This document shows positions 14,955 through 28,004 of a DNA stretch of 64,000 bases, one piece after another; the stretch's first letter is position 1; each line of letters begins with the position of its first letter. The notes beneath the pieces were generated by a model. That model did no database searches, was not told where the DNA came from, and was given only the letters and a program-made list of their open reading frames with translations. The position numbers were made by a program, and so were the translations under genes. This DNA is from an uncultured delta proteobacterium (GTDB lineage Bacteria > Desulfobacterota > Binatia > UBA9968): contig CAVUZH010000005.1 of assembly GCA_963745835.1 (NCBI GenBank), forward strand, positions 96,001-160,000, read 5' to 3'.

Positions 14955-16848
14955 ATGAAAGCGGCAACAATCAGTCCAGGAGTTTACAACCGGCGATTTC
15001 CTGTTGGAGCCGAACCGGCGACGGATGGAGTTTACTTTCGCGTCTGGGCGCCGCAAGCGAAACGAGTCGAGCTCTTGATCGGCGCCGCCGACTCCTTGCA
15101 GCCGGAGGAACTAGAGCCCGAAGCGCAGGGGTACTTTTCCGGTTTTGCGCCCGGGTGCGCTGGAGGCGATCTCTACCGTTTTCGCATAGATGGACGAGAG
15201 CAATTGCTGCCGGATCCAGCGTCCCGATTTCAGCCCGAAGGTCCGTTTGGCCCGTCGATGATCGTAGATGCGTCTCAATTTGAATGGCACGATGCTCAGT
15301 GGAACGGCGTAGGCCTCGCCAATCAGGTTATCTATGAGATGCACATCGGCACTTTTACTCTCGAAGGCACCTGGCAAGCTGCCAGCCGGCAGTTGCGCGA
15401 ATTAAGCATGCTCGGCGTGACCGTGCTCGAGATGATGCCGATCAATGATTTCTGCGGCAGCTTTGGATGGGGCTATGACGGCGTGAATTTTTTCGCACCC
15501 ACACGGCTGTATGGCGCACCCGACGATTTGCGCGGGTTTATCGATGAAGCGCATCGCGCCGGTCTCGCGGTCATCCTGGACGTGGTTTACAATCACGCTG
15601 GCCCAATGGGAAACTTCTTGAAAGATTTCTCGAAAGATTACTTTACCAACCGCTATGAAAACGAATGGGGTGAAGCGATCAACTTCGATGGTTCTAACTC
15701 GGGTCCGGTGCGGGAGTTCTTTCTCACTAATGCGCGTTACTGGATTTCCGAATTTCACTTTGACGGCCTGCGCTTAGATGCCACACAGGCGCTGTTCGAT
15801 GGGTCTGAGAAACACATCCTTGCCGAGCTGGTCGAAACCGCGCGCCAGGCAGCGGCGCCAAGATCAATCATCGTCATCGGCGAAAACGAACCTCAAAACA
15901 GCAAGCTCATGCGTCCTGCTGAGGAGCAGGGTTACGGCCTCGACGGGTTGTGGAACGATGACTTTCATCATACCGCGATGGTGGCTTTGACCGGGCACAA
16001 TGAAGCATATTACGCAGATTACCTCGGTAATCCGCAGGAGTTCATTTCCGCTGCCAAACACGGTTACCTCTATCAGGGACAGTACTACCGCTGGCAAGAG
16101 AAGCGCCGCGGCACCTCAACGATGGGGATCAAGCCCGCGGCTTTTGTCAACTATCTGCAGAATCACGATCAAATTGCTAATAGCGGTCGGGGCTGGCGGC
16201 TCCAACATATGACGGACCCTGCGCTCTACCGGGCAATTACTGCCTTGTTTCTTCTCTGTCCGCAAACGCCGATGCTGTTTCAAGGACAGGAGTTCGCCGC
16301 TTCGACTCCGTTTGCTTATTTCGCCGATCATCAAGGCGAGCTCGGCGAAAAAGTAAAACAAGGCCGGAGGGAATTCTTGCATCAGTTTCCCAGCCTCGCG
16401 ACAGAGGCGATCCAAGCGCAACTTCCCGATCCGACGGATCCGCAGGTTTTTGCCTCGTGCAAGCTCGATTTTTCGGAACGAAGTCGCCATCACGAGACCT
16501 ATGCGTTGCATCAGGATCTTCTTCGTCTGCGCCGCGCGGATGCTGCCTTTAATTCGCAGCAGGCTCGAGCAGTAGACGGAGCCGTGCTCGGCGATCGCGC
16601 GTTGCGTATTGAGATTCTTTGCGCCGGATGGCAAAGATCGCCTGCTGCTGATCAATCTGGGAATCGATACGATGCTCGGGCCGGTTCCGGAGCCGCTACT
16701 CGCCCCTCTCCCTGGCACTACCTGGCAGGTTCTTTGGTCGAGTGAGAACCCGCGCTACGGCGGCACCGGCGCACTGCCGGTGGAAAATGAAAGCGGCTGG
16801 TTGATAATTGGCAAGAGCGCCGTTGTCCTCGCGGATTGTTCTGAATGA
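14955..16848 (+). CDS. treZ: Malto-oligosyltrehalose trehalohydrolase (GH13); single frameshift near 16603
   Basis: FRVWAP, PDPASRFQPEG, YEMHIGTFT, WGYDG, DVVYNH, GLRLDATQ, WNDDFHH, QNHDQ; C-terminus continues in ORF 16609-16848 (LRFF...RLLLINLG). Confidence 0.92.
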
Positions 16849-18875
16849 ATCCTCTTCTTGTGCGCACGCTCACCGATATCCCGAAGATAAAGCTCGATCC
16901 ACCGGAGCTTACTCATCACCCGGAATGGCTCGTGACCAATGGCCTTGGCGGTTATGCCTCGGGAACGGTATCCGGGGCGATGACGCGCCGCTATCATGGT
17001 CTGTTGATCGCGGCGTTTCCGGCGCCCTTGGGAAGAATGATCCTGTTAAACGATCTCGATGAAGAGGTTCACCTTCCCAATAATCGCGTTGTCCATCTAA
17101 GTACCCGCTATGGTGATTCCGCCGAGCCCACTGCAGAGTTGCTTGAGTTCCGCCTCGAAATGGGTCTGCCGGTTTGGCGTTATCAGATAGATAATAATTG
17201 GATACTCGAAAAGTGGCTTCATCTGCCCTATCGGCAGAACACGGTTTTTATCACCTACAAAACGCTTGATTGCTCCGATGACATCCGGCTCAAGCTGCGG
17301 CCGTTGATCCAGTTTCGCGGTCACAGCGATGATGTCGACGCGCAACCCAAAGATCCCTATGTGCTGAGTGTGTTGGAAGATCAATATCAGATCTCGACGG
17401 GAAACCTGCCGCCCCTGCGTCTGCTGATCTACGCTAAAAGCGAGTTCGTCATCGAAAGAAAAAAAATTGAAAAGGTACGCTACCTGCGCGAAGAACAGCG
17501 CGGCTATCATGTGATCGGCGATCTTTGGACTCCCGGCACCTTTGTTCTCGATGTAGTCGCCAGCGAAGAGAGTACCCTGGTGGCTTCGACGGAGTCGTGG
17601 GAAGTCATGCGCGCCATGCGACCCGCCGATGCGCTGGCAGCTGAACGTGATCGCCGCGCGCGCCTGATTGCATTAGCCGATAGCAGAGCTCAGTCAGGAT
17701 TCGCCGCCGAGTTAGTGCTGGCCGCGGATCAATTCATTACCGTACCGACGGGCCGCCTCGCCGATCAGACTCGTACCCAGGCTGCGGGCGACGAAATGCG
17801 CACAGTTATCGCCGGTTATCATTGGTTCACCGACTGGGGACGCGACACCATGATCAGTCTGGAGGGCCTGACGCTTGTCACCCGGCGTTTTCTCGAAGCC
17901 GGGTGGATATTGCGCAATTTCGCCAAGAGCATCCGACACGGATTGATTCCCAATCTATTTCCGGAGGGAAGCCGCGAGGGACTCTACCATACGGCGGATG
18001 CCACTCTATGGTTCTTTCATGCGATTGAGCGCTATGTTCAAGCCACCGGCGACCGCTGGACTCTTAGGTTCCTCCTCCCCAAACTGATCGAGATCTTCGA
18101 GGCGCACATCCGTGGAACTTTGTTCGGCATCAGCGTCGATCCCGACGACGCGCTGTTGCGCCAGGGCGAAGAAGGATACCAACTGACGTGGATGGACGCT
18201 AAAGTTGGCGATTGGGTTGTCACTCCGCGCCGCGGCAAGGCCGTTGAAATCGATGCACTCTGGTACAACGCCCTGCGCCTTCTGCAAAAATGGGTCGCGG
18301 AAGAAAACGATCAGAAGAAGGCGCGCGACATAGGCGCTTGGGCCGACAAAGCTAAAGACTCGTTCAACAAAAAATTTTGGTGCGCGGCGGAGGGTTATCT
18401 TTACGACGTCATCGATAGCCCTCAAGGCGACGATGCCGCCTGCCGGCCGAATCAATTGCTGGCCATCTCCCTGGATCATCCAATTCTCGAGTCAGGTCGC
18501 TGGGAGCCGGTCCTGAGAACGGTCCAACAGCGTCTTCTGACTCCATTCGGATTGCGCTCGCTTGCCGCAAACCATCCGGATTACAAGTCAAGATATTTTG
18601 GCGACATTCGCGCGCGCGATGCCGCTTATCATCAAGGGACCGTTTGGGCCTGGTTGATCGGCCCGTTAATCGATGCGTGGCTCAAAGTTTATCCCGAAGA
18701 TCGCACCGGCGCGCACGAGCTTTTACGTGGACTTATTCCGCACATGAATGAGCACGGTATCGGTTCGATCAGCGAGGTCTTCGATGCGGAACAACCGTGG
18801 ACTCCCCACGGCTGTATAGCCCAGGCGTGGAGCGTTGCCGAGGTGTTGCGCTGCTGGGTCAAGACGGCGCCGTGA
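16845..18875 (+). CDS. Glycogen debranching enzyme (amylo-alpha-1,6-glucosidase)
   Basis: EWLVTNGLGGYASGT, TRRYHGLL, IAGYHWFTDWGRDTMI, TWMDAK, YHQGTVWAW, QAWSVAE; ATGA overlap with treZ. Confidence 0.93.
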   Translation: MNPLLVRTLTDIPKIKLDPPELTHHPEWLVTNGLGGYASGTVSGAMTRRYHGLLIAAFPAPLGRMILLNDLDEEVHLPNNRVVHLSTRYGDSAEPTAELLEFRLEMGLPVWRYQIDNNWILEKWLHLPYRQNTVFITYKTLDCSDDIRLKLRPLIQFRGHSDDVDAQPKDPYVLSVLEDQYQISTGNLPPLRLLIYAKSEFVIERKKIEKVRYLREEQRGYHVIGDLWTPGTFVLDVVASEESTLVASTESWEVMRAMRPADALAAERDRRARLIALADSRAQSGFAAELVLAADQFITVPTGRLADQTRTQAAGDEMRTVIAGYHWFTDWGRDTMISLEGLTLVTRRFLEAGWILRNFAKSIRHGLIPNLFPEGSREGLYHTADATLWFFHAIERYVQATGDRWTLRFLLPKLIEIFEAHIRGTLFGISVDPDDALLRQGEEGYQLTWMDAKVGDWVVTPRRGKAVEIDALWYNALRLLQKWVAEENDQKKARDIGAWADKAKDSFNKKFWCAAEGYLYDVIDSPQGDDAACRPNQLLAISLDHPILESGRWEPVLRTVQQRLLTPFGLRSLAANHPDYKSRYFGDIRARDAAYHQGTVWAWLIGPLIDAWLKVYPEDRTGAHELLRGLIPHMNEHGIGSISEVFDAEQPWTPHGCIAQAWSVAEVLRCWVKTAP

Positions 18876-19219: not shown

Positions 19220-19651
19220 ATGCAGATCAGAGACATCATGACGAGAGAGGTCGAAGTCGTACCAGGTGATGCTCCGGTGCGCGAAGCCGCCGCCAAGATG
19301 AAACAGCTCGACGTCGGAGCAATACCCGTCTGCGACGGGCAGAAGTTAACCGGTGTGCTAACCGATCGTGATATCGCGGTGCGTCTGGCTGCGGAAGGAC
19401 GCAACCCGTCAGAAACTCGGGTCTCCGAAATCATGACCCGGGATCTCTATTATTGTTTTGAGGATCAGGACGTCGAAGAAGCGGCTACGGTAATGGAAGC
19501 AGGCCAGATACGGCGCCTGCCGATACTCGATCAAGATCGGCAACTGGTGGGTATAGTTTCTCTCGGTGATATTTCGGTTCGGTCGGATGAAAAAACGGCG
19601 GCGGCCGAGGCTCTCGAAGGAATCTCAGAGCCGGCGGCGCCGAGACGATGA
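19220..19651 (+). CDS. CBS-domain (Bateman) protein
   Basis: IRDIMT, VGAIPV, GVLTDRDI, IRRLPI, GIVSLGDI; strong RBS. Confidence 0.92.
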   Translation: MQIRDIMTREVEVVPGDAPVREAAAKMKQLDVGAIPVCDGQKLTGVLTDRDIAVRLAAEGRNPSETRVSEIMTRDLYYCFEDQDVEEAATVMEAGQIRRLPILDQDRQLVGIVSLGDISVRSDEKTAAAEALEGISEPAAPRR

Positions 19652-19884: not shown

Positions 19885-20784
19885 ATGGCTCGTTCAAACA
19901 AAACAATCGCTCACAAGAAAAAGACGAAGGCTGCCGCAAACAAGTCCGCCGGACGAGCGCTGTGGAAAGGGTCGATCAATTTCGGCCTGGTGAATATACC
20001 GGTAGCGCTTTATCCCGCGGAAACATCAAAATCGCTGGACTTAGATATGCTTGATCGGCGCGATTTCTCGCCGATCAAGTATCAACGCATTAACAAAAAG
20101 ACCGGCAAGGAAGTTGCCTGGGATCAAATCGTCAAAGGTTACCAGTATCAAAAGGGCGAATACGTCACTCTTAGTGATGAGGAATTGCGCAGCGCCAATG
20201 TCGAGGCAACTCAATCTGTAGATATTCTCGATTTCGTCGCAGGCGATGAGATCAGCCCGGTATATTTCGATAGGCCGTACTACTTGGAACCGCTGAAAAA
20301 CGGGCGGCGCGCCTATATGCTTCTGCGTGAGGTGTTACTCAAATCCAACAAAGTCGCCATCGCCAGAGTGGTCATTCGCACCCGTGAGCATCTCGCGGCG
20401 GTGATTCCGCAGGCCCACGTGCTGATTCTCAACCTGCTCCGCTTTCAACATGAACTGCGCGATAGCAAAGGGCTGGATATTCCCGTGTCGGACAGCAAAG
20501 GTCGGGCAATCAGCGCCAACGAATTGCAGATGGCTGAGCGGTTGATCGAGGCTATGTCGGGCCCGTGGAATCCGGCAAAGTATCGCGACGAGTACCGCGA
20601 AGATGTGGAGAATCTGATTGAAAAGAAAATCAAAAGCGGCCGGCCGCGCGCGGTCTCAACCGACAGTAAAGGTCCGGCGCGCAAAACCGGAGGCAAGGTG
20701 GTCGATATCATGAGTTTGCTCCAGCGCAGCGTGGCTCAGACCCAGAAAAAGGACGATGCTCCACGGCGGCGAAAGGCGAGCTGA
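19885..20784 (+). CDS. ku: Non-homologous end-joining protein Ku
   Basis: RALWKGSINFGLVNIPV, IVKGYQY, YFDRPYYL, YRDEYR, VVDIMSLLQRS and basic tail. Confidence 0.96.
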   Translation: MARSNKTIAHKKKTKAAANKSAGRALWKGSINFGLVNIPVALYPAETSKSLDLDMLDRRDFSPIKYQRINKKTGKEVAWDQIVKGYQYQKGEYVTLSDEELRSANVEATQSVDILDFVAGDEISPVYFDRPYYLEPLKNGRRAYMLLREVLLKSNKVAIARVVIRTREHLAAVIPQAHVLILNLLRFQHELRDSKGLDIPVSDSKGRAISANELQMAERLIEAMSGPWNPAKYRDEYREDVENLIEKKIKSGRPRAVSTDSKGPARKTGGKVVDIMSLLQRSVAQTQKKDDAPRRRKAS

Positions 20785-20957
20785 AGGAGTCCCAGAAATT
20801 CACTAATGAACCGAAAGCGAAAACCGACACCGGTTTACACGGACATCAACTTTCGTTTCATTGTCAAACTGATCTGAAGCTTCTTGAGTAACACGTAAGC
20901 GCATAGATCAAGAGCATTGCGGCTCATCTGTTACGGCGCGACTTGCTCTTCTGAATC

Positions 20958-22949
20958 ATGAAACGCAGTAATCCCAATGCTTCAGCGAGGGCGGATTCCG
21001 AACGGGAACCTGATTTGCGCAGCGATCGCCGTAAAGGAAATAAAAAAGCTACCGCGGCGCTGATCAAACGCGCGCGAAAATCTCCGCTGCCGGAGTTCGT
21101 AGCGCCGCAATTAGCGACGTTGGTAGATCGCGTGCCGCAGGGCGACGATTGGCTGCACGAGATAAAGTTCGACGGTTACCGAATCCTGTGCCGGATCAGC
21201 GATGGCAAGATTTGCTTGATCACGCGTAATCGACAGGACTGGACTGAACGGCTGAGTTTCCTAGCCCAGGCTGCGACGGAACTCCCGGTCGAACACGCGC
21301 TTCTCGACGGCGAGGTCGTGGCTCTCAACGAAAACGGCACCACTAACTTTCAGCTACTGCAAAATTCTCTTTCAACCCATGCCAGTGATAATTTAGCCTA
21401 TTACGTTTTCGATTTACTTCATCTGAATGGCAATGATCTGATGCCGTTGCCGTTGCTTACGCGCAAAGAAACCTTGGCGGAAATCGTGAAGGCGAAATCA
21501 GCTTCGTCCCCGATTCGCTATAGTGAGCACTGGCTGGGCCAGGGCGATCGGCTCTACGATGAAGCTTGCCGCTCCGGGCTCGAGGGGGTGATTTCTAAAA
21601 AAGCCCACGAACCTTATCGTTCCGGTCGCAGTCGCGATTGGCTCAAAACCAAATGTGTCCAAAATCAAGAGTTTGTCATTGGCGGTTTCACCGATCCCGC
21701 CGGATCACGCGCCGGGCTCGGCGCTCTTCTCGTTGGGGTTCACGACGAGCGCGGCCGTTTGGTTTTCGCCGGTAAGGTCGGCACCGGATTCAGCCGCCAA
21801 AGTCTCACCGAGCTGCGCAATCGACTAGATCCGCTGGTTTTGAAGGCACCGCCTTTCGTCAATCCACCTAGGGGCGCGGAGGCAAGAGGCGTTCACTGGG
21901 TCAAACCCGAACTTATCGGCGCCGTCTCATTTGCCGAATGGACTAGCGATAACATGCTACGCCATCCATCATTTCAAGGCTTGCGCGAAGACAAGCCGCC
22001 GGTAGCGATTACGCGCGAGCGCGTCTCGGGCACAAACAATTCCAATGCTTCCAAGCCTGACGAGACCGTAGAGATTGCCGGCGTAAAATTGACTCACGCC
22101 GACCGCATTCTCTACCCGGAGCAAGGCATCACCAAACGTGAGCTCGCTCTTCATTTCGAACAAATTGCCGCTTGGATTCTACCCCATGTGGCAGGCAGGC
22201 CGTTGACGCTTGTGCGCTGTCCCGAAGGCCAAAGTAAAGAGTGCTTCTACCAGCGACACGTCACCGATTCCGCCAGCGAGTGGATCCGTCCGGTTCCGAT
22301 CAAGGAAAGAGGCAAGCTGGTGAATTACGTGGCCGTTGATAATCTCCAGGGATTGATCGCGCTGGTGCAAATGGGAGTGCTGGAGCTGCATACCTGGGGC
22401 TGCACCACCGATCATATAGATCGACCCGATCGGCTGATCTTCGATCTGGATCCGGACCCGGAGATTGCTTGGGAGCCTCTCAAGCAGGCGGCGCAATCGT
22501 TGCGCGCCTATCTTGGCGACTTGGGATTGCCGAGCTTTCTCAAAACCACCGGCGGCAAGGGTCTTCACGTTGTCGTTCCGCTTGTCCCGAAGATCGACTG
22601 GGAGACTGCCAAAGAATTTTCCAAGCAGATTGCGCAGCGCATGGTGCATCGAGGGCCAGACCGTTACACCGCGACTATGTCGAAGGCCAAGCGACGGGGA
22701 AAAATCTACATTGACTATTTACGCAACGCCAAGACCGCCACAGCTGTCGCCGCCTATTCAACTCGGGCGCGCGTCGGCGCGCCGGTGTCGATGCCTTTGC
22801 GCTGGGAGGAGCTTGGCGCCGATATCCGCGGCGATCACTTCAATCTGCGCAACACACCCGAACGCTTGGCACGTCTTCGTAAAGATCCCTGGCACGAGTA
22901 CGAATCGGCACGCCGCGCGATTACACTGGCGCTGATCAAAAAACTGTGA
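20958..22949 (+). CDS. ligD: ATP-dependent DNA ligase D (ligase + primase-polymerase domains; no phosphoesterase domain)
   Basis: HEIKFDGYR, LDGEVV, YVFDLL, EGVISK, WLKTK; polymerase motifs LVRCPEG, FDLDP, KTTGGKGLH, DYLRN. Confidence 0.95.
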   Translation: MKRSNPNASARADSEREPDLRSDRRKGNKKATAALIKRARKSPLPEFVAPQLATLVDRVPQGDDWLHEIKFDGYRILCRISDGKICLITRNRQDWTERLSFLAQAATELPVEHALLDGEVVALNENGTTNFQLLQNSLSTHASDNLAYYVFDLLHLNGNDLMPLPLLTRKETLAEIVKAKSASSPIRYSEHWLGQGDRLYDEACRSGLEGVISKKAHEPYRSGRSRDWLKTKCVQNQEFVIGGFTDPAGSRAGLGALLVGVHDERGRLVFAGKVGTGFSRQSLTELRNRLDPLVLKAPPFVNPPRGAEARGVHWVKPELIGAVSFAEWTSDNMLRHPSFQGLREDKPPVAITRERVSGTNNSNASKPDETVEIAGVKLTHADRILYPEQGITKRELALHFEQIAAWILPHVAGRPLTLVRCPEGQSKECFYQRHVTDSASEWIRPVPIKERGKLVNYVAVDNLQGLIALVQMGVLELHTWGCTTDHIDRPDRLIFDLDPDPEIAWEPLKQAAQSLRAYLGDLGLPSFLKTTGGKGLHVVVPLVPKIDWETAKEFSKQIAQRMVHRGPDRYTATMSKAKRRGKIYIDYLRNAKTATAVAAYSTRARVGAPVSMPLRWEELGADIRGDHFNLRNTPERLARLRKDPWHEYESARRAITLALIKKL

Positions 22950-23006
22950 CCGGATAAATTGCCAACGGCTGGGCTGCGCTCGCAGCAAGAAGTGAAAGGA
23001 GGTCGT

Positions 23007-23732
23007 ATGAAAGACACTGTAATTTTTCTCGCCGGCGCCGCATTTGGAGCCGGTATGATGTATGCCCTCGATCCCGATGCTGGAAGGCGTCGCCGCGCTC
23101 TGACCCGCGATCAGTTAGTAAGGGCTCGGGTAAAGACGCGCGAAACCGCATCGGCTACAGCCCGGGATCTCCTCAATCGCAGCTACGGCATCATGACCGG
23201 AGCGCGCTCTCGCTTGTTTCAAGGCGAGGTTGACGATGAAGTACTCGAGCAAAGAGTTCGCTCCAAGTTTGGCTACGTCGTGCGCAATCCTTCGGCCATT
23301 CAAGCGCGAGTCGACTCCGGGCGTGTGACTTTAACTGGCGCGGTGCGCGCCGATGAAGTGGATCAATTGATCGCCGAAGTCTCCGCGGTGCGAGGCGTGA
23401 CCGCCGTGGAGAACCGTTTGGACGTACATCATGAAGCGGCCCATGTGCCGGAACTGCAAAGCGGCGATAAACCCAGGCCAAGCCGGCCGCGGCTTGACAT
23501 CTTTCAACGGCGCTGGTCGCCGGCGACGCGCCTGCTAATCGGCATCTCCGGCGCTGCGATCATATATGCCGTTGCTCGGCCGCATTTTCTCTGGAGCGCC
23601 TTATTATCGTTAGGGCTGGCGGGTTACGCCTCTGCGGGCGCCGATGCTGGGCGCGCCCTGTTGCCGCGCCGGCTCAAAGGAAAGCAGGTTAATGCGCTGT
23701 ATGACCCTTTGAGCACGAGCTGGAGTAGTTAA
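23007..23732 (+). CDS. BON-domain membrane protein
   Basis: AGGAGG RBS; GAGMMYALDP..GRRRRA N-terminus; BON core GRVTLTG...VRGVTAVENRL. Confidence 0.85.
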   Translation: MKDTVIFLAGAAFGAGMMYALDPDAGRRRRALTRDQLVRARVKTRETASATARDLLNRSYGIMTGARSRLFQGEVDDEVLEQRVRSKFGYVVRNPSAIQARVDSGRVTLTGAVRADEVDQLIAEVSAVRGVTAVENRLDVHHEAAHVPELQSGDKPRPSRPRLDIFQRRWSPATRLLIGISGAAIIYAVARPHFLWSALLSLGLAGYASAGADAGRALLPRRLKGKQVNALYDPLSTSWSS

Positions 23733-23851
23733 TCACCGGACGCCGGCCACGCTGGCCGAGCAACCTGCAGGCGGGTTTTAGCTGGTTCTGCAGCATTGTC
23801 AGCCTGGCTTTAGATTTCTTGACCCCGAAAAAATTCGAAAGGGACCGGGTT

Positions 23852-25597
23852 ATGACCACCGCAGCCGATGTTCTTATCGAAGCCATTCAAGATTGGGGAG
23901 TCGATGTCATTTTCGGTCTGCCCGGGGATGGCATCAACGGCATCATGGAGGCGTTGCGCAACCGGCAGGAGCAGATCCGCTTTATTCAGGCTCGTCACGA
24001 AGAAGCGGCGGCATTCATGGCTTGCGCTTATGCCAAATACACGGGCAAGCTCGGCGTCTGCTTGGCGACCTCGGGTCCCGGCGGCATCCATTTACTGAAC
24101 GGACTCTATGACGCCAAGCTTGACGGCCAACCAGTGCTAGCGATCACGGGGCATCACTATCATGATCTGATTGATACTCATGCGCAGCAGGACGTCGACC
24201 TCGATCGTGTCTTCATGGACGTCACGGTCTACAACACCCGAATCATGGGACCGGCGCATGTCGAACAGGTGACTCATCTGGCGTGCCGCACGGCGCTCAG
24301 TTATCGCGGCGTCGCGCACATCAACTTTCCGGTCGATCTGCAGGAGCAGAAGTTAAAGGAGCACTCAAAGCGCAATATTCCAGGGCACACGTCAAAAATA
24401 TTCTCGAGCAAAGCAGGGTTGCCCGAAGAGAAAGATCTGCGCGCCGCCGCTGAAATTCTCAACTCTGGAAAAAAAATCGCGATCATGGCGGGACAGGGCG
24501 CGCTGGCGGCAACCGACGAGCTGGAGGAACTGGCCGGCACGCTGGCGGCGCCGATTATCAAACCGCTCTTGGGCAAGGCGGCGGTTCCCGACGATAGCCC
24601 TTTTACCACCGGTGGCGTTGGCCTGCTCGGCACCAAACCGTCACAGGAGGCATTAGAGGAATGCGACACGTTGCTGATGATCGGCACGTCATTTCCGTAT
24701 ATCGAGTTCCTACCCAAGCCGGGGCAGGCGCGCGGGGTGCAGATCGACATCAATGCGGCGCGCATCGGGCTGCGTTATCCAATCGAAGTGGGGCTGGTCG
24801 GAGACAGTCGTCTCACCTTGAGACAGCTATTACCGATGCTCAAGCGCAACGAAGACCGGAGCTTTCTCAAGAAAGCCCAAGATGGAATGGTCGAGTGGTG
24901 GAAGCTGATGGAAGAGCGAGGCACCCGAACCGATAAGCCGATGAAACCGCAAGTAGTGGCCTGGGAGTTGGGCAAGAGATTAAAGTCCGATGCCATTGTC
25001 TCGGCGGATTCAGGAACTATCGCAACCTGGTTTGCGCGGCAGATTCGTGTCCGGCGCGGGCAGAAGTATTCGTTGTCGGGCACACTCGCGAGCATGGCCA
25101 ATGGCCTGCCATATACGATCGCCGCGCAAATCGCTTATCCCGAGCGACAGTGCGTTGGCTTTGTCGGCGATGGCGGCTTTTCCATGCTGATGGCCGAGTT
25201 CGCTACCTGCGTGAAGTATCGGTTGCCGGTCAAAATCATCGTGATCAAGAATAATACTTTGGGCATGATCAAGTGGGAGCAAATGGTCTTCTTGGGCAAT
25301 CCTGAATACGGTTGCGAGCTGCAGCCGATCGATTTTGCCGCGTTCGCGCGCGCCTGCGGCGGCACCGGTTTTACCATCGAAGAGCCGGCGTCATGCGGCG
25401 CTATTCTCGACCAAGCTCTGGCGGTTCCCGGGCCGGTGATTATCGACGCGGTGGTGGATCCTTTCGTGCCACCGATGCCGCCGAAAATCACTTTCGCTCA
25501 GGCCAGTCATTTTGCCGAATCCCTGGCGCGAGGCGAACCTAACCGATCGAAGATCGCATGGACTGTTCTTTCGGACAAAGTGCGAGAGCTGATTTGA
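23852..25597 (+). CDS. poxB: Pyruvate oxidase/dehydrogenase (ThDP- and FAD-dependent, PoxB family)
   Basis: FGLPGDGIN, RHEEAAAF, SGPGGIHLLNGLYDAK, GDGGF...KNN ThDP motif. Confidence 0.88.
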   Translation: MTTAADVLIEAIQDWGVDVIFGLPGDGINGIMEALRNRQEQIRFIQARHEEAAAFMACAYAKYTGKLGVCLATSGPGGIHLLNGLYDAKLDGQPVLAITGHHYHDLIDTHAQQDVDLDRVFMDVTVYNTRIMGPAHVEQVTHLACRTALSYRGVAHINFPVDLQEQKLKEHSKRNIPGHTSKIFSSKAGLPEEKDLRAAAEILNSGKKIAIMAGQGALAATDELEELAGTLAAPIIKPLLGKAAVPDDSPFTTGGVGLLGTKPSQEALEECDTLLMIGTSFPYIEFLPKPGQARGVQIDINAARIGLRYPIEVGLVGDSRLTLRQLLPMLKRNEDRSFLKKAQDGMVEWWKLMEERGTRTDKPMKPQVVAWELGKRLKSDAIVSADSGTIATWFARQIRVRRGQKYSLSGTLASMANGLPYTIAAQIAYPERQCVGFVGDGGFSMLMAEFATCVKYRLPVKIIVIKNNTLGMIKWEQMVFLGNPEYGCELQPIDFAAFARACGGTGFTIEEPASCGAILDQALAVPGPVIIDAVVDPFVPPMPPKITFAQASHFAESLARGEPNRSKIAWTVLSDKVRELI

Positions 25598-25610
25598 AAG
25601 GGGGGAGCCA

Positions 25611-26345
25611 ATGCCGCAGATCATCGTAAGCCGCGACGAGCTGCAACAGCGAGTTAATGACGGGGCGCATCTCGTCGAAGTCTTGCCGGCCAAAGAATTT
25701 GCCCGGGCGCATCTGCCGCGGGCGATCAACATTCCTTTGGCAAAACTCAGCGAGAAGACAATTGCGAGCCTGGATAAGAAAAACGCCACGATCGTTCATT
25801 GCTATGATTACCAGTGAGACCTGGCTCCCAGAGCCGCGTCGCGGCTCGAGAGTTTTGGCTTCGAAAAAGTTTTTTACTATAAACCGGGAAAAGCCGATTG
25901 GTTGGCGCACGGATTGCCAGCGATCCGAGAGAATCGAGAGCCAAAAACTATCTGGGTCATGGACCATATGCAGCGCGAATTGCCGACATGCGGACTCGAC
26001 GAACCTGTTGGGCAGGCCGGCGCGCGAGCGGAGCAGCGCGGCTACTCTGTCTGCCCGGTGGTGAACGAAAACGGAATCGTTCTTGGCGTTATCGGTAAAC
26101 ACGATTGGGATACCGATCCGACCGCATCGGTGCAGCAGCTCATGGATTCCGCGCCGACAACTCTGCGTCCGAGCGATCCGCTGGAAAAGGCGCAACAGTT
26201 GCTCCAGAAAATCGATCACGGAGCTGTGCTCATCACCGACTCAGACGGAAAGCTGCTCGGGGCATTTCTCGGCGCCGCAAACAATGAAGAAGCCGGCCGC
26301 AAACAGCAGGGGCCGCAATCAGAGGTCCGGTCTCGACGAGGATAA
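25611..26345 (+). CDS. Rhodanese-CBS fusion protein with in-frame TGA at 25815-25817 (predicted selenocysteine, CxxxxU)
   Basis: ORFs 25611-25817 and 25902-26345 share one frame; read-through gives HCYDYQ-U-DLAPRAASRLESFGFEKVFYYKPGKADWLAHGLP, completing the rhodanese fold, followed by a CBS pair. Confidence 0.8.
25831..25847 (+). promoter_or_regulatory. Candidate bacterial SECIS hairpin
   Basis: GAGCCGC-GTC-GCGGCTC perfect stem; apical G(U) loop starts 20 nt after the TGA. Confidence 0.6.
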
Positions 26346-26490
26346 GAGCTCTCGTGACGCGCTGGGCTCCAAGGGGCATTTCGCCGGATTCATTTGTCGT
26401 TCCTGAACGTTTAACGATTTTGTGGCGCGGACCATCAAACATCAGTTCAGGTCGATTAGGCGCAGGCAAATTAAGCAAGGATGATTCTCA

Positions 26491-27357
26491 TTGAAGCGGC
26501 CGCGATCTGGATGGATTAATGGATTAGTCGTAATTGGCGAATTCTGTTTCTTGCTCTGGCTTGAGCGCCGCCGGCCGTTGCGCCGGCCCGTTGAACCGAA
26601 ACTCAGGCGCAGCGCAAGGAATCTTTCGGTTGCGGTGTTGAGCGGAGTTGCCCTGCAAGTCACTGAGCGGCCGCTTATCGCTGCGCTCGTTTCTACTGTC
26701 GAGCGCCGACGGTGGGGGTTACTCAAACTGTGGTCGATGCCGCGCTGGCTCGAAGCGCCGCTTGCGGTGGCGTTGATGGACTACACGCTTTATCTCTGGC
26801 ATGTACTCATGCATCGATCATTCTGGCTGTGGCGGCTGCATCTTCCTCATCACGTCGATCTCGATCTCGACGCTTCGACCGCGCTGCGCTTTCACTTCAG
26901 CGAGCTTGTGGTTTCGATCGCTTGGAGGGGTGGCCAGGTAGTGTTGATTGGGGTTTCTCCATCCGCCTATTCCGGTTGGCAGAAGCTGCTGATGTTTTCC
27001 ATCCTATTCCACCATTCCAATGTCGAGTTACCGATTGAGCTCGAGCGTTGGCTCAGCCGGATTATTGTCACGCCGCGTTTGCACGGTATCCATCATTCGA
27101 TTATTCGCGACGAGACCGACTCGAACTGGTCGAGCGGATTGACATTGTGGGACTGGTTACATGGCACCTTGAAGGTCAATGTGCCGCAGCAAGCAATCAC
27201 CATCGGCGTTCCTGCCTACCGACAAAGTCGGGACGTGAGTCTTCGGAAGATTATTCTGATGCCGTTCGTAAGCCAGCCGCCCAGCTGGCAACTGCCCGGA
27301 AATGGAGAGCCTCGACGAGAAGCTTTGCCGGCGCGCCGCAGCCAACTGATGGTATGA
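26491..27357 (+). CDS. Sterol desaturase/fatty-acid hydroxylase family protein
   Basis: His boxes WHVLMH, HLPHH, FHHSN, HGIHH; DSNWSSGLTLWDWLHGT; TM segments. Confidence 0.9.
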   Translation: MKRPRSGWINGLVVIGEFCFLLWLERRRPLRRPVEPKLRRSARNLSVAVLSGVALQVTERPLIAALVSTVERRRWGLLKLWSMPRWLEAPLAVALMDYTLYLWHVLMHRSFWLWRLHLPHHVDLDLDASTALRFHFSELVVSIAWRGGQVVLIGVSPSAYSGWQKLLMFSILFHHSNVELPIELERWLSRIIVTPRLHGIHHSIIRDETDSNWSSGLTLWDWLHGTLKVNVPQQAITIGVPAYRQSRDVSLRKIILMPFVSQPPSWQLPGNGEPRREALPARRSQLMV

Positions 27358-27436: not shown

Positions 27437-27462
27437 GAGCTGTCAAAAAAGGAAGGTGCGCT

Positions 27463-28004
27463 ATGAACCTGGAATTGAGCCGAAACGGAAAGCTAACTCC
27501 GCAGCAGCTACGTCAACAGCTCCAGGAAGGGGAGACTTCGGATTTGCGGCGGCGGCGCGGTGTTATTGGCTTGTCGCTGGTCGTATGGGATGTATGACGG
27601 CGGTGACTTTGTTGCAGACCGGCATCGTCAAGCACCTTCCCGATCCGCCGATGGGCAATTTCGATTCGGACCGAGTGAACTCGTCAGATACGGCTTATCG
27701 CCTTGGTGCTCCGGACGGCTCGATTTCGCTGGCGAGTCTAGCCGCAAATATTCCGATTGCGGCATTTGGCGGCGTCAATCGCGTGCAAACCAAACCTTGG
27801 GTTCCGCTGGGCGCAGCGCTGAAAGCGGCGGGTGAGGCGCTGGCAGCCGGTTGGTATTTCTATCAGATGCCGGCAAAGGAAAAGGCGTGGTGCGGCTACT
27901 GCATCGTGGGCGCCCTGGCAAACATTGGTATCGCGGTTCTAACCATACCGGAGGCTCGAAAAGCCATCGCTGTTTTGATGAGTGAAACTACAAAAGCGCA
28001 ATGA
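27463..28004 (+). CDS. Vitamin K epoxide reductase (VKOR) family protein; frameshift near 27582
   Basis: LRRRRGVIGLSL joins MGCMTAVTLLQTGIVKHLPDPP...FDSDRVNSS...KAWCGYC (CxxC). Confidence 0.8.

What the first reader, a model, noticed from the sequence alone, without database searches (positions are those of the whole stretch)
25611..26345. Hidden selenoprotein candidate: CxxxxU rhodanese fused to a CBS pair
Seen: the two annotated ORFs are in one frame separated only by TGA 25815-25817. The intervening codons give the missing end of the rhodanese fold (DLAPRAASRLESFGFEKVFYYKPGKADW). The TGA lies five residues after the active-site Cys64, and a perfect 7-bp hairpin with a G-U-C loop starts its loop 20 nt downstream, as expected for a bacterial SECIS. 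Read-through gives 244 aa. Established: UGA plus a downstream hairpin directs Sec insertion, and CBS pairs bind adenine nucleotides. Inference: an energy-charge-regulated Cys/Sec sulfur-transfer or redox enzyme inside the stress operon. Rhodanese selenoproteins are known in general, but I cannot place this motif and architecture among them.
Basis: partly seen in the sequence, partly recalled or inferred. Interest (0 to 1): 0.85.

Follow-up and report, generated by a model that had tools for sequence, protein, structure and literature searches.

The report
Rhodanese–CBS selenoprotein missed by annotation
Two small neighbouring reading frames are really one gene whose internal TGA almost certainly encodes selenocysteine, and the same gene is split in this way in many soil bacteria, so a widespread selenium-containing enzyme has been missed by annotation.

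Summary
ORF 25611-25817 and the frame running to 26345 are separated only by TGA 25815-25817. Read-through gives a 244-aa rhodanese + CBS-pair protein.

The TGA is a selenocysteine codon by every computational test available:
- **Codon at the site.** In 89 parsed homologous loci it is TGA in 66 and Cys in 23, and nothing else.
- **Hairpin.** 58 of 61 distinct TGA forms carry the same GC-rich hairpin with its loop 19-20 nt downstream.
- **Synonymous sites.** They are frozen in the stem in TGA forms only: 0-0.28 bits against 1.5-1.7 bits in Cys forms that encode the same residues.
- **Sec machinery.** selA, selB, a Sec-containing selD and tRNA-Sec are in the genome.
- **Independent assemblies.** Two contigs from another study keep the TGA.

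Sec lies five residues after the canonical rhodanese Cys. That is the position of the second Sec of the known selenoprotein TsoB.

No NCBIfam selenoprotein model claims the protein. A 2026 catalogue lists five rhodanese selenoprotein forms, none with a CBS pair or a CxxxxU motif.

Verdict: a real selenoprotein and a new variant of a known kind. Its function (redox or sulfur transfer, nucleotide-regulated) is inferred.

The parts
25600..25607 (+). Purine-rich Shine-Dalgarno-like run (GGGGGGAG) just before the ATG. The upstream TPP-enzyme gene stops at TGA 25595-25597, 13 nt before the start codon.
   Evidence: Read directly. ORF ends. No sigma-70-like promoter was found in 23400-26700, which fits co-transcription with the upstream gene but does not show it.
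25611..26345 (+). Complete coding sequence of the rhodanese-CBS selenoprotein: 244 codons plus a TAA stop, with the internal TGA read as Sec.
   Evidence: AlphaFold2 model: mean pLDDT 81.4, pTM 0.74.
25632..25907 (+). Rhodanese domain (residues 8-99), which spans the TGA.
   Evidence: Pfam PF00581, 50 bits against a cut-off of 22.2, as one stretch. In the model, helix 71-81 and strand 87-90 lie after U69.
25800..25802 (+). Cys64 codon (TGC), the canonical rhodanese active-site position at the end of the beta-strand TIVH.
   Evidence: This column is Cys in 85 of 89 homologous loci, TGA in 1, Ser in 2 and Gly in 1.
25815..25817 (+). In-frame TGA, proposed selenocysteine codon 69.
   Evidence: This column is TGA in 66, TGC in 20 and TGT in 3 of 89 parsed loci. 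TGA in 16 of 16 further metagenome loci that cover the site. Unchanged in two independent contigs of run X9.
25823..25854 (+). SECIS-like stem-loop. Apical 7-bp stem 25831-25837 / 25841-25847 with loop GUC 25838-25840. Lower stem 25823-25827 / 25850-25854. It lies inside the codons for P-R-A-A-S-R-L-E.
   Evidence: Fold. The same hairpin sits at the same place in 58 of 61 distinct TGA forms. Synonymous sites in the stem are frozen in TGA forms only.
25959..26270 (+). CBS pair (about residues 117-220).
   Evidence: Pfam PF00571, two stretches, 54.3 bits. pLDDT is about 90-96 over this part. Foldseek matches nucleotide-binding CBS pairs such as AcuB, CBSX1/2 and MJ0922 at E about 1e-8.

Best explanation
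Bases 25611-26345 are one gene for a 244-residue selenoprotein.

Proposed decoding (inferred): during translation, SelB carrying Sec-tRNA(Sec) binds the GC-rich hairpin whose G-U-N loop begins 20 nt after UGA 25815-25817. It decodes that UGA as selenocysteine 69, so the ribosome completes the rhodanese domain and continues into a C-terminal CBS pair.

Position of Sec: it sits in the rhodanese active-site loop, five residues after the canonical Cys64 (C-Y-D-Y-Q-U).

Proposed chemistry (inferred, about 50% for this version):
- U69 is the nucleophile. It either takes up sulfane sulfur or selenium, or attacks an oxidised substrate.
- Cys64 resolves the adduct through a Cys64-Sec69 selenenylsulfide.
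- The CBS pair binds an adenosine-containing ligand and modulates the rhodanese domain.

Shown by computation: the Cys/Sec pair, a SECIS constraint specific to TGA forms, the Sec machinery, and the integrity of the fold. Inferred: actual Se incorporation, the chemistry and the ligand.
For: 1. One frame, one fold. The Rhodanese HMM matches across the TGA. Residues after the TGA are among the most conserved of the family: G93, K94, D96 and W97 are invariant. In the window the first in-frame start codon after the TGA is TTG 25902, which lies after them. The AF2 model places a helix and a strand of the rhodanese fold after U69.

2. Cys/Sec pair.
- I examined 94 loci and could parse 89. Of these, 66 have TGA, 20 TGC and 3 TGT at this column, and no other codon occurs.
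- All 14 loci from the window's own taxonomic family, the window included, have TGA. Identity falls as low as 42%.
- 16 of 16 further metagenome loci that cover the site have TGA.

3. SECIS.
- 58 of 61 distinct TGA forms have a perfect 7-9-bp stem at one place. The other three keep a weakened version.
- In 59 of the 61 the best hairpin's loop starts 19-20 nt after the TGA. The two exceptions are L062 and L122.
- Loops: GUG in 38, CGUGC or CGUGU in 13, GUC in 3, GGC in 3.
- Mean best-hairpin energy is -12.1 kcal/mol, against -7.7 in 23 Cys forms, whose hairpins have no fixed place.
- Third-position entropy of codons +6, +7, +9 and +10 is 0.00, 0.00, 0.00 and 0.28 bits in TGA forms. It is 1.73, 1.73, 1.53 and 1.63 bits in Cys forms encoding the same Ala-Ala-x-Arg-Leu. 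Nearby four-fold sites (+4, +14) vary freely in both groups.
- The only Cys form with the intact hairpin, L090 (TGT), is the sister of a TGA form, L088.

4. Sec machinery in the genome. selA, selB and selD lie side by side on contig C22, and selD itself carries one in-frame TGA. tRNA-Sec(TCA) is on C13. All 25 contigs have G+C of 0.525-0.556.

5. Match between form and machinery. selB scores over its cut-off in 11 of the 13 related genomes with the TGA form and in 5 of 5 TGA-form genomes of other phyla. It does so in 0 of 4 Streptomyces genomes with the Cys form.

6. Not an assembly error. Two contigs from a different study's run (X9), one near-identical and one about 92% identical, span the site, and no difference is listed at 25815-25817.

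7. TGA is an ordinary stop in this genome. The upstream TPP-enzyme gene ends with TGA 25595-25597.

8. Precedent for the position. In TsoB (NF045694, found with two in-frame TGAs) the rhodanese loop reads U-x4-U. Laid beside each other by eye, its two Sec residues fall at the positions of Cys64 and Sec69: both first residues follow the beta-strand.
Against: - There is no direct evidence of selenium in the protein, so every point above is comparative or structural prediction.
- The hairpin is not significant on folding energy alone (z = -1.6).
- The stem hardly varies, so there are no compensatory double changes. Only one-sided compatible changes occur (A-U to G-U, G-C to G-U).
- The homologues are related to one another, so the counts are not independent events. 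Two locus pairs are the same sequence reached by two routes (L016 = L043, L019 = L044).
- selB was not found in two related genomes that have the TGA form: G007 (96% complete) and G001 (84% complete).
- G000 is a metagenome-type assembly with 9.3% estimated contamination. That the sel genes on C22 belong to the same organism as C5 rests on similar G+C and on relatives having both.
- Some relatives have decayed copies: L024 has an extra stop, and L025 and L026 have lost the CBS part. The gene is therefore dispensable in some strains.
- RNA evidence is weak. Two 151-nt metatranscriptome contigs lie on the CBS part only, and none crosses the TGA.
- The proposed chemistry and the CBS ligand were not tested. 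Gene neighbours are not conserved across phyla and give no functional anchor.
Confidence: 0.9

Rival explanations
1. The gene is a pseudogene: a Cys codon (TGC or TGT) mutated to TGA and the gene is decaying.
For: TGA is one substitution from TGC or TGT. Some relatives do carry decayed copies: L024 has an extra TAG or frameshift, and L025 and L026 have lost the CBS pair. A contig in run X1 shows the same 583-base skip.
Against: The TGA is kept in 66 of 89 loci from several phyla, down to about 35-40% protein identity, with the frame and conserved residues intact on both sides. A nonsense mutation would not freeze synonymous sites in a downstream hairpin. It would also not track the presence of selB.
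Confidence: 0.02
2. These are two separate genes, as annotated: a 68-residue rhodanese fragment that ends at TGA, and an independently initiated CBS protein.
For: Gene callers produce exactly this split. At least 60 distinct 68-residue 'rhodanese' fragments and about 25 truncated 'CBS domain' proteins are in the public protein collection.
Against: A 68-residue piece lacks the last helix and strand of the rhodanese fold. The stretch between the TGA and the first possible start (TTG 25902) encodes the family's most conserved residues in the upstream frame. Cys-form homologues are single 230-residue proteins.
Confidence: 0.02
3. The TGA is read through, but not as Sec: by near-cognate suppression (Trp or Cys), or under a variant genetic code.
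For: One database homologue, P0054, is recorded with Trp at this column.
Against: TGA terminates the neighbouring gene. The aligned residue in non-TGA homologues is always Cys, never Trp or Gly. All 16 relatives of P0054 that cover the site have TGA plus the hairpin, so its W is most likely a gene call under a TGA=Trp table (inference). A SelB-type hairpin at the canonical distance and the match with selB point to Sec.
Confidence: 0.04
4. It is a Sec protein, but its role is selenium or sulfur delivery rather than thiol/selenol redox. In this version it acts as a perselenide or persulfide carrier, for example towards SelD or cofactor synthesis, and Cys64 has no resolving role.
For: Rhodanese domains classically carry persulfides (established knowledge). 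The +5 column is invariant Cys/Sec, while the canonical Cys64 column is lost in 3 of 89 loci (Ser, Ser, Gly) and in 2 database proteins (Gly). So Cys64 is not strictly required in Cys forms.
Against: In all 66 TGA forms the Cys64 column is Cys (65) or Sec (1). That argues that the pair matters when Sec is used. The gene is not next to the sel genes, which lie on C22 while the gene is on C5. No conserved sulfur- or selenium-metabolism neighbour was found.
Confidence: 0.3

Closest known systems
TsoB, rhodanese/DsbD fusion-like selenoprotein (NCBIfam NF045694; 'form 5', motif UxxxxU, in the 2026 catalogue PMC13188914)
   Same: Its rhodanese loop has a Sec five residues after the canonical active-site position. 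In TsoB loci with two in-frame TGAs the loop reads F-Y-U-x4-U. Laid beside each other by eye, its two Sec residues fall at the positions of Cys64 and Sec69 here. One family member, L065, even has TGA at both positions.
   Different: This protein scores 17.5 bits against a cut-off of 805. TsoB is about 570 residues with a DsbD-like membrane part and two Sec residues. This protein is 244 residues, apparently soluble, has a CBS pair, and has Cys at the first position.
Rhodanese-related (seleno)protein NF041203 ('LYCAU' type, motif CxU; 'form 3')
   Same: It is a rhodanese domain in which the canonical Cys is kept and a nearby downstream residue is Sec. The same genome carries a copy with the loop L-Y-C-S-U.
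   Different: The score is 15.6 bits against a cut-off of 115. Sec is at +2, not +5, and there is no CBS pair.
Rhodanese selenoproteins with Sec at the canonical Cys (catalogue forms 1, 2 and 4; motifs UxxS and UxxG)
   Same: They share the Pfam domain and are predicted selenoproteins. Examples seen here are the SseA-like T-Y-U-Q-G-G in related genomes and L-Y-U-A-C-P in this genome.
   Different: Here the canonical position is Cys and Sec is at +5. For form 1 (WP_010941598.1, motif UxxS) I could not obtain the sequence. U-D-L-S in most family members would also read as 'UxxS', so identity with form 1 is not excluded.
BH2092 protein of Bacillus halodurans (PDB 3O3W, 3NHV)
   Same: It is the best small solved relative (E = 1.3e-7). 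Its rhodanese loop is C-x4-C, and both Cys residues align with Cys64 and Sec69.
   Different: It has Cys, not Sec, and is a single domain of 126-144 residues without a CBS pair. No function is given in the entry title.
Cys-form rhodanese-CBS proteins (for example Streptomyces, Acidobacteriota; about 230 residues)
   Same: They have the same architecture and 36-47% identity, with Cys at both positions.
   Different: They have no TGA and no conserved hairpin. The four Streptomyces genomes tested lack selB. I found no characterised member.
Bacterial SECIS of Escherichia coli fdhF (recalled from textbook knowledge, not from a call)
   Same: It is a hairpin immediately downstream of the UGA, inside the coding sequence, with a G-U in the apical loop about 20 nt from the UGA.
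   Different: Here the loop is only 3-5 nt and the stem is a perfect G+C-rich helix with no bulged U. SelB binding was not tested.

Membership tests
Bacterial selenoprotein gene (UGA recoded by SelB and a SECIS) | In-frame UGA with conserved coding sequence on both sides | tested here: met
Bacterial selenoprotein gene (UGA recoded by SelB and a SECIS) | Homologues with Cys aligned to the UGA, and other homologues that keep the UGA | tested here: met
   66 TGA, 23 Cys and 0 other among 89 parsed loci. 16 of 16 further metagenome loci have TGA.
Bacterial selenoprotein gene (UGA recoded by SelB and a SECIS) | Stem-loop immediately downstream of the UGA, under selection | tested here: met
   The best hairpin's loop starts 19-20 nt after the TGA in 59 of 61 TGA forms, and 58 of the 61 have a perfect 7-9-bp stem there. 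Synonymous sites in the stem are frozen only in TGA forms.
Bacterial selenoprotein gene (UGA recoded by SelB and a SECIS) | selA, selB, selC and selD present in the genome | tested here: met
   All protein hits are over the curated cut-offs.
Bacterial selenoprotein gene (UGA recoded by SelB and a SECIS) | Selenium shown in the polypeptide | not testable with these tools
   Needs 75Se labelling or mass spectrometry.
Rhodanese homology domain (PF00581) | HMM score over the gathering cut-off, and Cys at the end of the central beta-strand | tested here: met
   50 bits against 22.2, residues 8-99. Cys64 follows strand 60-63 in the model.
CBS pair (PF00571 x2) | Two CBS motifs that fold as a Bateman module | tested here: met
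   Two stretches, 54.3 bits against 24. Foldseek hits CBS pairs at E about 1e-8. Ligand binding was not tested.
TsoB (NF045694) | Score over 805 bits, a DsbD-like domain, and two Sec residues (UxxxxU) | tested here: not met
   17.5 bits. There is no DsbD-like part. The first position is Cys. Only the +5 Sec position is shared.
NF041203 rhodanese-related (seleno)protein, CxU | Score over 115 bits and a CxU motif | tested here: not met
   15.6 bits. The motif here is CxxxxU.
Rhodanese selenoprotein form 1 (WP_010941598.1, UxxS) | Sequence similarity to the catalogue's example protein | not tested
   The sequence could not be obtained and the source paper (Bioinformatics 2005) is not held. Only the catalogue table rows were seen.

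The most novel reading that the evidence does not exclude
This would be a sixth, so far uncatalogued family of rhodanese selenoproteins. It is widespread in soil Chloroflexota, Actinomycetota, Binatia-labelled genomes and others, and is systematically split into two ORFs by annotation. In it the invariant, probably catalytic residue is Sec at +5, not the textbook rhodanese Cys, and it would work with that Cys as a C-x4-U selenenylsulfide redox or sulfur-relay couple under the control of a nucleotide-sensing CBS pair. If so, it would be the first Sec enzyme with a built-in CBS sensor.
Probability: 0.45. Interest if true: 0.65.

Novelty: new variant of a known kind. Interest (0 to 1): 0.55.

Why it matters
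- **Annotation.** Public collections hold this gene as a 68-residue 'rhodanese' fragment plus a truncated 'CBS domain protein' in dozens of clusters. Selenoproteome counts for soil Chloroflexota, Actinomycetota and Binatia-labelled genomes are therefore too low. A family-specific model would correct many genomes at once.
- **Mechanism.** The invariant residue of the family is the +5 Cys/Sec, not the canonical rhodanese Cys. TsoB places a Sec at the same spot. This points to a rhodanese sub-type with a two-residue C/U-x4-C/U active site whose chemistry is unknown. The Sec form marks the catalytic residue, as Cys/Sec pairs usually do.
- **RNA and protein overlap.** The SECIS lies in the codons of a conserved helix (R-A-A-x-R-L-E). 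Matched Cys forms serve as internal controls. Together they give a clean natural example of overlapping RNA and protein constraints.

Tried and rejected
- **Folding energy alone** did not single out the hairpin (z = -1.6), so I relied on comparative analysis instead.
- **Covariation counting** was not run. The stem is almost invariant, so it would say nothing. I used synonymous-site entropy against Cys forms instead.
- **Conserved gene neighbourhood as a functional clue.** I scanned the longest flanking ORF on each side of 84 and 83 loci against Pfam. No family was present in more than 6 loci: BON 6 of 84, pyridine-nucleotide disulfide oxidoreductase 4 of 84 and TPP enzyme 3 of 84 upstream; luciferase-like 6 of 83 and Usp 4 of 83 downstream. 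A tblastn of the window's neighbours found them only in close relatives, apart from a stand-alone CBS protein in 7 loci. ORF picking was crude in these high-G+C loci, so weak conservation could have been missed.
- **Structure search.** The Foldseek results were dominated by the CBS pair and added nothing on the rhodanese loop.
- **Promoter and terminator scan.** It found no promoter-like site, and terminator-like sites were no more frequent than in shuffles.
- **Reads and contigs.** Runs X1 and X4 have no cover over the TGA. RNA run X15 covers only 25911-26061 and 26089-26238. These gaps prove nothing.
- **Taxonomy of the genome** was not settled. Two loci of the same GTDB family are identical to NCBI records labelled Candidatus Binatia and Deltaproteobacteria MAG. 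Near-identical protein fragments are labelled Binatia or Polarisedimenticolaceae.
- **Literature.** The terms 'rhodanese' + 'CBS domain' + 'selenocysteine' gave 0 papers. Neither 'CxxxxU' nor 'CBS' occurs in the 2026 catalogue text. The deep-Sep paper has no 'rhodanese' or 'CBS' in its main text.
- **Papers: how much of each I saw.**
  - PMC13188914: outline, passages, and part 2 of 3 of section 7.
  - PMC9312934, PMC1088965, PMC2398784, PMC1794560, PMC5029168, PMC1976440 and PMC12013277: passages only.
  - Other papers: search listings only.
  - The TsoB paper (PMC12013261) is not held.
- **Unpublished genomes.** G018 and G012 are flagged as unpublished. Locus L022 (G018) is one of the 14 family loci, one of the 66 TGA loci and one of the 11 selB-positive relatives. 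Without it the counts are 13, 65 of 88 and 10 of 12. G012 contributes only a MoeB-like hit mentioned in passing.
Full report
**Observation.**
The window holds ATG 25611 and an in-frame TGA at 25815-25817. The same frame then stays open to TAA 26343-26345. Reading the TGA through gives 244 residues.

Pfam finds one rhodanese domain, residues 8-99, running straight across the TGA (50 bits, cut-off 22.2). It also finds a CBS pair (54.3 bits, cut-off 24). Cys64 (TGC 25800-25802) is the canonical rhodanese cysteine, and the TGA is five codons later.

A perfect 7-bp stem (25831-25837 / 25841-25847) with loop GUC begins its loop 20 nt after the TGA, and a lower stem extends it. On folding energy alone the stretch is unremarkable (z = -1.6).

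**Is the TGA kept, and what do homologues have there?**
- The public protein collection holds the closest relatives only in pieces. There are about 25 'CBS domain' proteins of 136-177 residues that start after the TGA position. There are at least 60 distinct 68-residue 'rhodanese' fragments that stop at it.
- Full-length relatives of about 230 residues (36-45% identical) have Cys in the TGA column.
- In whole genomes, 13 relatives from the same taxonomic family carry the gene at 42-93% identity, each with a TGA at exactly this codon.
- A scan of one genome per species found 97 relatives, of which the best 80 were kept.
- Together with the window's own locus, I examined 94 loci, and a motif-anchored script could parse 89. 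The column is TGA in 66, TGC in 20 and TGT in 3, and nothing else.
- Three of the five unparsed loci (L024-L026) also have the TGA but are damaged further downstream. For L099 and L100 the pattern failed.
- Two pairs of loci are the same sequence reached by two routes. By distinct 72-nt segments the split is 61 TGA and 23 Cys.
- The one database protein with Trp in this column (P0054) has 16 of 16 site-covering metagenome relatives with TGA. Its W is probably a gene call under a TGA=Trp table (inference).

**Is the hairpin a SECIS?**
- In 58 of 61 distinct TGA forms the same perfect 7-9-bp G+C-rich stem lies at the same place. The other three keep a weakened version.
- The best hairpin's loop starts 19-20 nt after the TGA in 59 of 61. 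The exceptions are L062 and L122.
- The loop begins with G-U in most: GUG 38, CGUGC or CGUGU 13, GUC 3, GUU 1. In most of the rest it is G-G (GGC 3, CGGGC 1).
- The mean stem-loop energy is -12.1 kcal/mol.
- The 23 Cys forms encode the same peptide (R-A-A-W/A-R-L-E) but have no hairpin at a fixed place, and their mean best energy is -7.7.

The decisive test is at synonymous sites:

| Codon after the TGA/Cys | Third-position entropy, TGA forms (bits) | Third-position entropy, Cys forms (bits) |
|---|---|---|
| +6 | 0.00 | 1.73 |
| +7 | 0.00 | 1.73 |
| +9 | 0.00 | 1.53 |
| +10 | 0.28 | 1.63 |
| +4 and +14 (four-fold sites outside the stem) | 1.65, 1.89 | 1.55, 1.59 |

The RNA constraint is therefore confined to the stem and to the TGA forms. 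The single Cys form that keeps the hairpin (L090, TGT) is the sister of a TGA form (L088). That fits a recent Sec-to-Cys change.

**Can the organism make Sec?**
- selA, selB and selD lie side by side on contig C22, all over their curated cut-offs, and selD itself has one in-frame TGA. tRNA-Sec(TCA) is on C13.
- The assembly has 9.3% estimated contamination, but all contigs have similar G+C.
- selB is over its cut-off in 11 of the 13 relatives with the TGA form. It was not found in G001 (84% complete) or G007 (96% complete).
- It is over its cut-off in 5 of 5 TGA-form genomes of other phyla. It is not in any of 4 Streptomyces genomes with the Cys form. One Blastocatellia genome has the Cys form and also selB.

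**Is the TGA an assembly error?**
Contigs from public soil and rhizosphere runs of other studies hold the stretch. In run X9 two contigs span the site, one with 1 difference and one with 24, and no difference is listed at 25815-25817. An RNA library (X15) has two 151-nt contigs on the CBS part only. That is weak evidence of transcription and says nothing about the TGA.

**Fold.**
An AlphaFold2 model built from 27 sequences has mean pLDDT 81.4 and pTM 0.74. Helix 71-81 and strand 87-90 follow residue 69, so the rhodanese fold needs the read-through segment. The CBS pair is modelled at pLDDT about 90-96. It resembles nucleotide-binding CBS pairs such as AcuB and CBSX.

**What it most likely does.**
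- The +5 column is invariant Cys/Sec. The canonical Cys column is Cys in 85 of 89 loci, Sec in one (L065, which therefore reads U-x4-U) and Ser, Ser or Gly in three Cys forms.
- All 66 TGA forms keep Cys or Sec at the first position.
- I therefore propose that Sec69 is the nucleophile and Cys64 its partner. In this scheme they would form a selenenylsulfide or relay sulfane sulfur, and the CBS pair would act as an adenosine-ligand sensor. This part is inference.
- Gene context gives little help. In the window the gene follows a TPP enzyme by 13 nt and lies among Ku, LigD, a BON protein, a stand-alone CBS protein, a fatty-acid hydroxylase and VKOR. That context is shared only with close relatives, and no neighbour family recurs in more than 6 of about 84 loci across phyla.

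**Comparison with known selenoproteins.**
- Rhodanese-type selenoproteins are well known. A 2026 catalogue lists five forms: UxxS, UxxG, CxU (NF041203), UxxG, and TsoB with UxxxxU (NF045694) (PMC13188914; table rows seen).
- Its text contains neither 'CBS' nor 'CxxxxU'.
- Against NCBIfam release 20 this protein reaches no family cut-off. TsoB scores 17.5 against 805 and NF041203 scores 15.6 against 115.
- I fetched TsoB loci from genomes of the same phylum. 20 of 301 genomes score over the cut-off, and every over-cut-off match has two in-frame TGAs.
- Their rhodanese loop reads F-Y-U-x4-U. Laid beside each other by eye, the two Sec residues fall at the positions of Cys64 and Sec69. The +5 Sec therefore has a precedent, in a very different architecture.
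- A solved Cys-only relative, BH2092 (PDB 3O3W, 3NHV), has C-x4-C aligned to the same two positions.
- I could not obtain the example sequence of catalogue form 1 (UxxS). Most members of this family read U-D-L/M-S, so I cannot exclude that form 1 is a relative.

**Evolution.**
On a FastTree of 89 rows the Sec/Cys label needs at least 6 changes, and well-supported branches force at least 3. Cys clades (13 Streptomyces, 6 Acidobacteriota) and single Cys forms are nested among Sec forms. The tree is unrooted, so direction is shown only for L090.

By the NCBI labels of the records, TGA forms occur in:
- Actinomycetota (32)
- Chloroflexota (15)
- Thermomicrobiota (3)
- single Binatota, Methylomirabilota, Myxococcota-labelled, Pseudomonadota-labelled and Acidobacteriota records
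- the 11 loci of the window's own family

**Verdict.**
- The finding is a new variant of a known kind: a rhodanese-CBS selenoprotein with a C-x4-U site that annotation pipelines systematically split.
- It is of solid interest to selenoprotein and sulfurtransferase specialists, but it is not a surprise in kind.
- Function is open.

Noticed in passing
G000:C15:23199-23486 (-), outside the window; fragments at G000:C20:53000-53158 and G000:C15:31960-32085: This is a second rhodanese selenoprotein candidate in the same genome. An open frame of about 380 residues, apparently membrane-spanning by eye, ends in a C-terminal rhodanese domain with the loop L-Y-C-S-U (CxU type, like NF041203). Two shorter near-copies of the rhodanese end, each with the TGA, lie elsewhere.
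   Followed up: partly
G000:C4:25655-25927 (+), outside the window: This is a third candidate: a roughly 150-residue rhodanese with an N-terminal hydrophobic leader and TGA at the canonical active-site position (L-Y-U-A-C-P-H-H). A similar gene (L-Y-U-Q-C-P-R-H) is in related genome G049 (L145).
   Followed up: partly
G000:C22:65479-70161, outside the window: selA, selB and selD are adjacent, and selD itself has one in-frame TGA (a Sec-containing SelD).
   Followed up: partly
L025 (G001), L026 (G004), and a contig of run X1 laid on window 25862 -> 26446: In some close relatives the gene is cut short. After ...E-S-F-G-F the sequence jumps to the equivalent of window position about 26446 (583 bases skipped, with 46 other letters between). 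This removes the end of the rhodanese domain and the whole CBS pair, while the TGA and hairpin remain. L024 (G005) has an extra TAG or frameshift. The gene therefore seems dispensable in some strains.
   Followed up: partly
L065 (uncultured Chloroflexi MAG contig), codons at the Cys64 and Sec69 columns: One family member has TGA at both positions (I-V-Y-U-M-D-Y-Q-U), which is the U-x4-U arrangement of TsoB, served by a single downstream hairpin.
   Followed up: no
window 19885-22949: Ku (19885-20784) and a LigD with ligase plus primase-polymerase domains (20958-22949) form a bacterial non-homologous end-joining pair. A BON-domain protein (22959-23732) follows, and a stand-alone CBS-pair protein (19220-19651) precedes them.
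   Followed up: partly
window 14955-18875: Two glycogen or trehalose-type enzymes sit side by side: an alpha-amylase family protein with CBM48 (14955-16745) and a glycogen-debranching-enzyme-like protein with GDE_N and GDE_C (16845-18875).
   Followed up: no
L027-L031 (G021, G028, G012, G032, G030): Open frames of 366-413 residues in related genomes carry a rhodanese domain 29-34% identical to this one and one in-frame TGA. They are possibly the known MoeB-type selenoprotein, since the best NCBIfam hit of the query's rhodanese part is a MoeB model. I did not look at them further. G012 is flagged as unpublished.
   Followed up: no
window 27456-28004: A VKOR-family (vitamin K epoxide reductase) membrane protein lies two genes downstream, after a fatty-acid hydroxylase family protein (26491-27357). 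VKOR is a thiol-oxidoreductase family, but the pairing is seen only in the closest relatives.
   Followed up: partly
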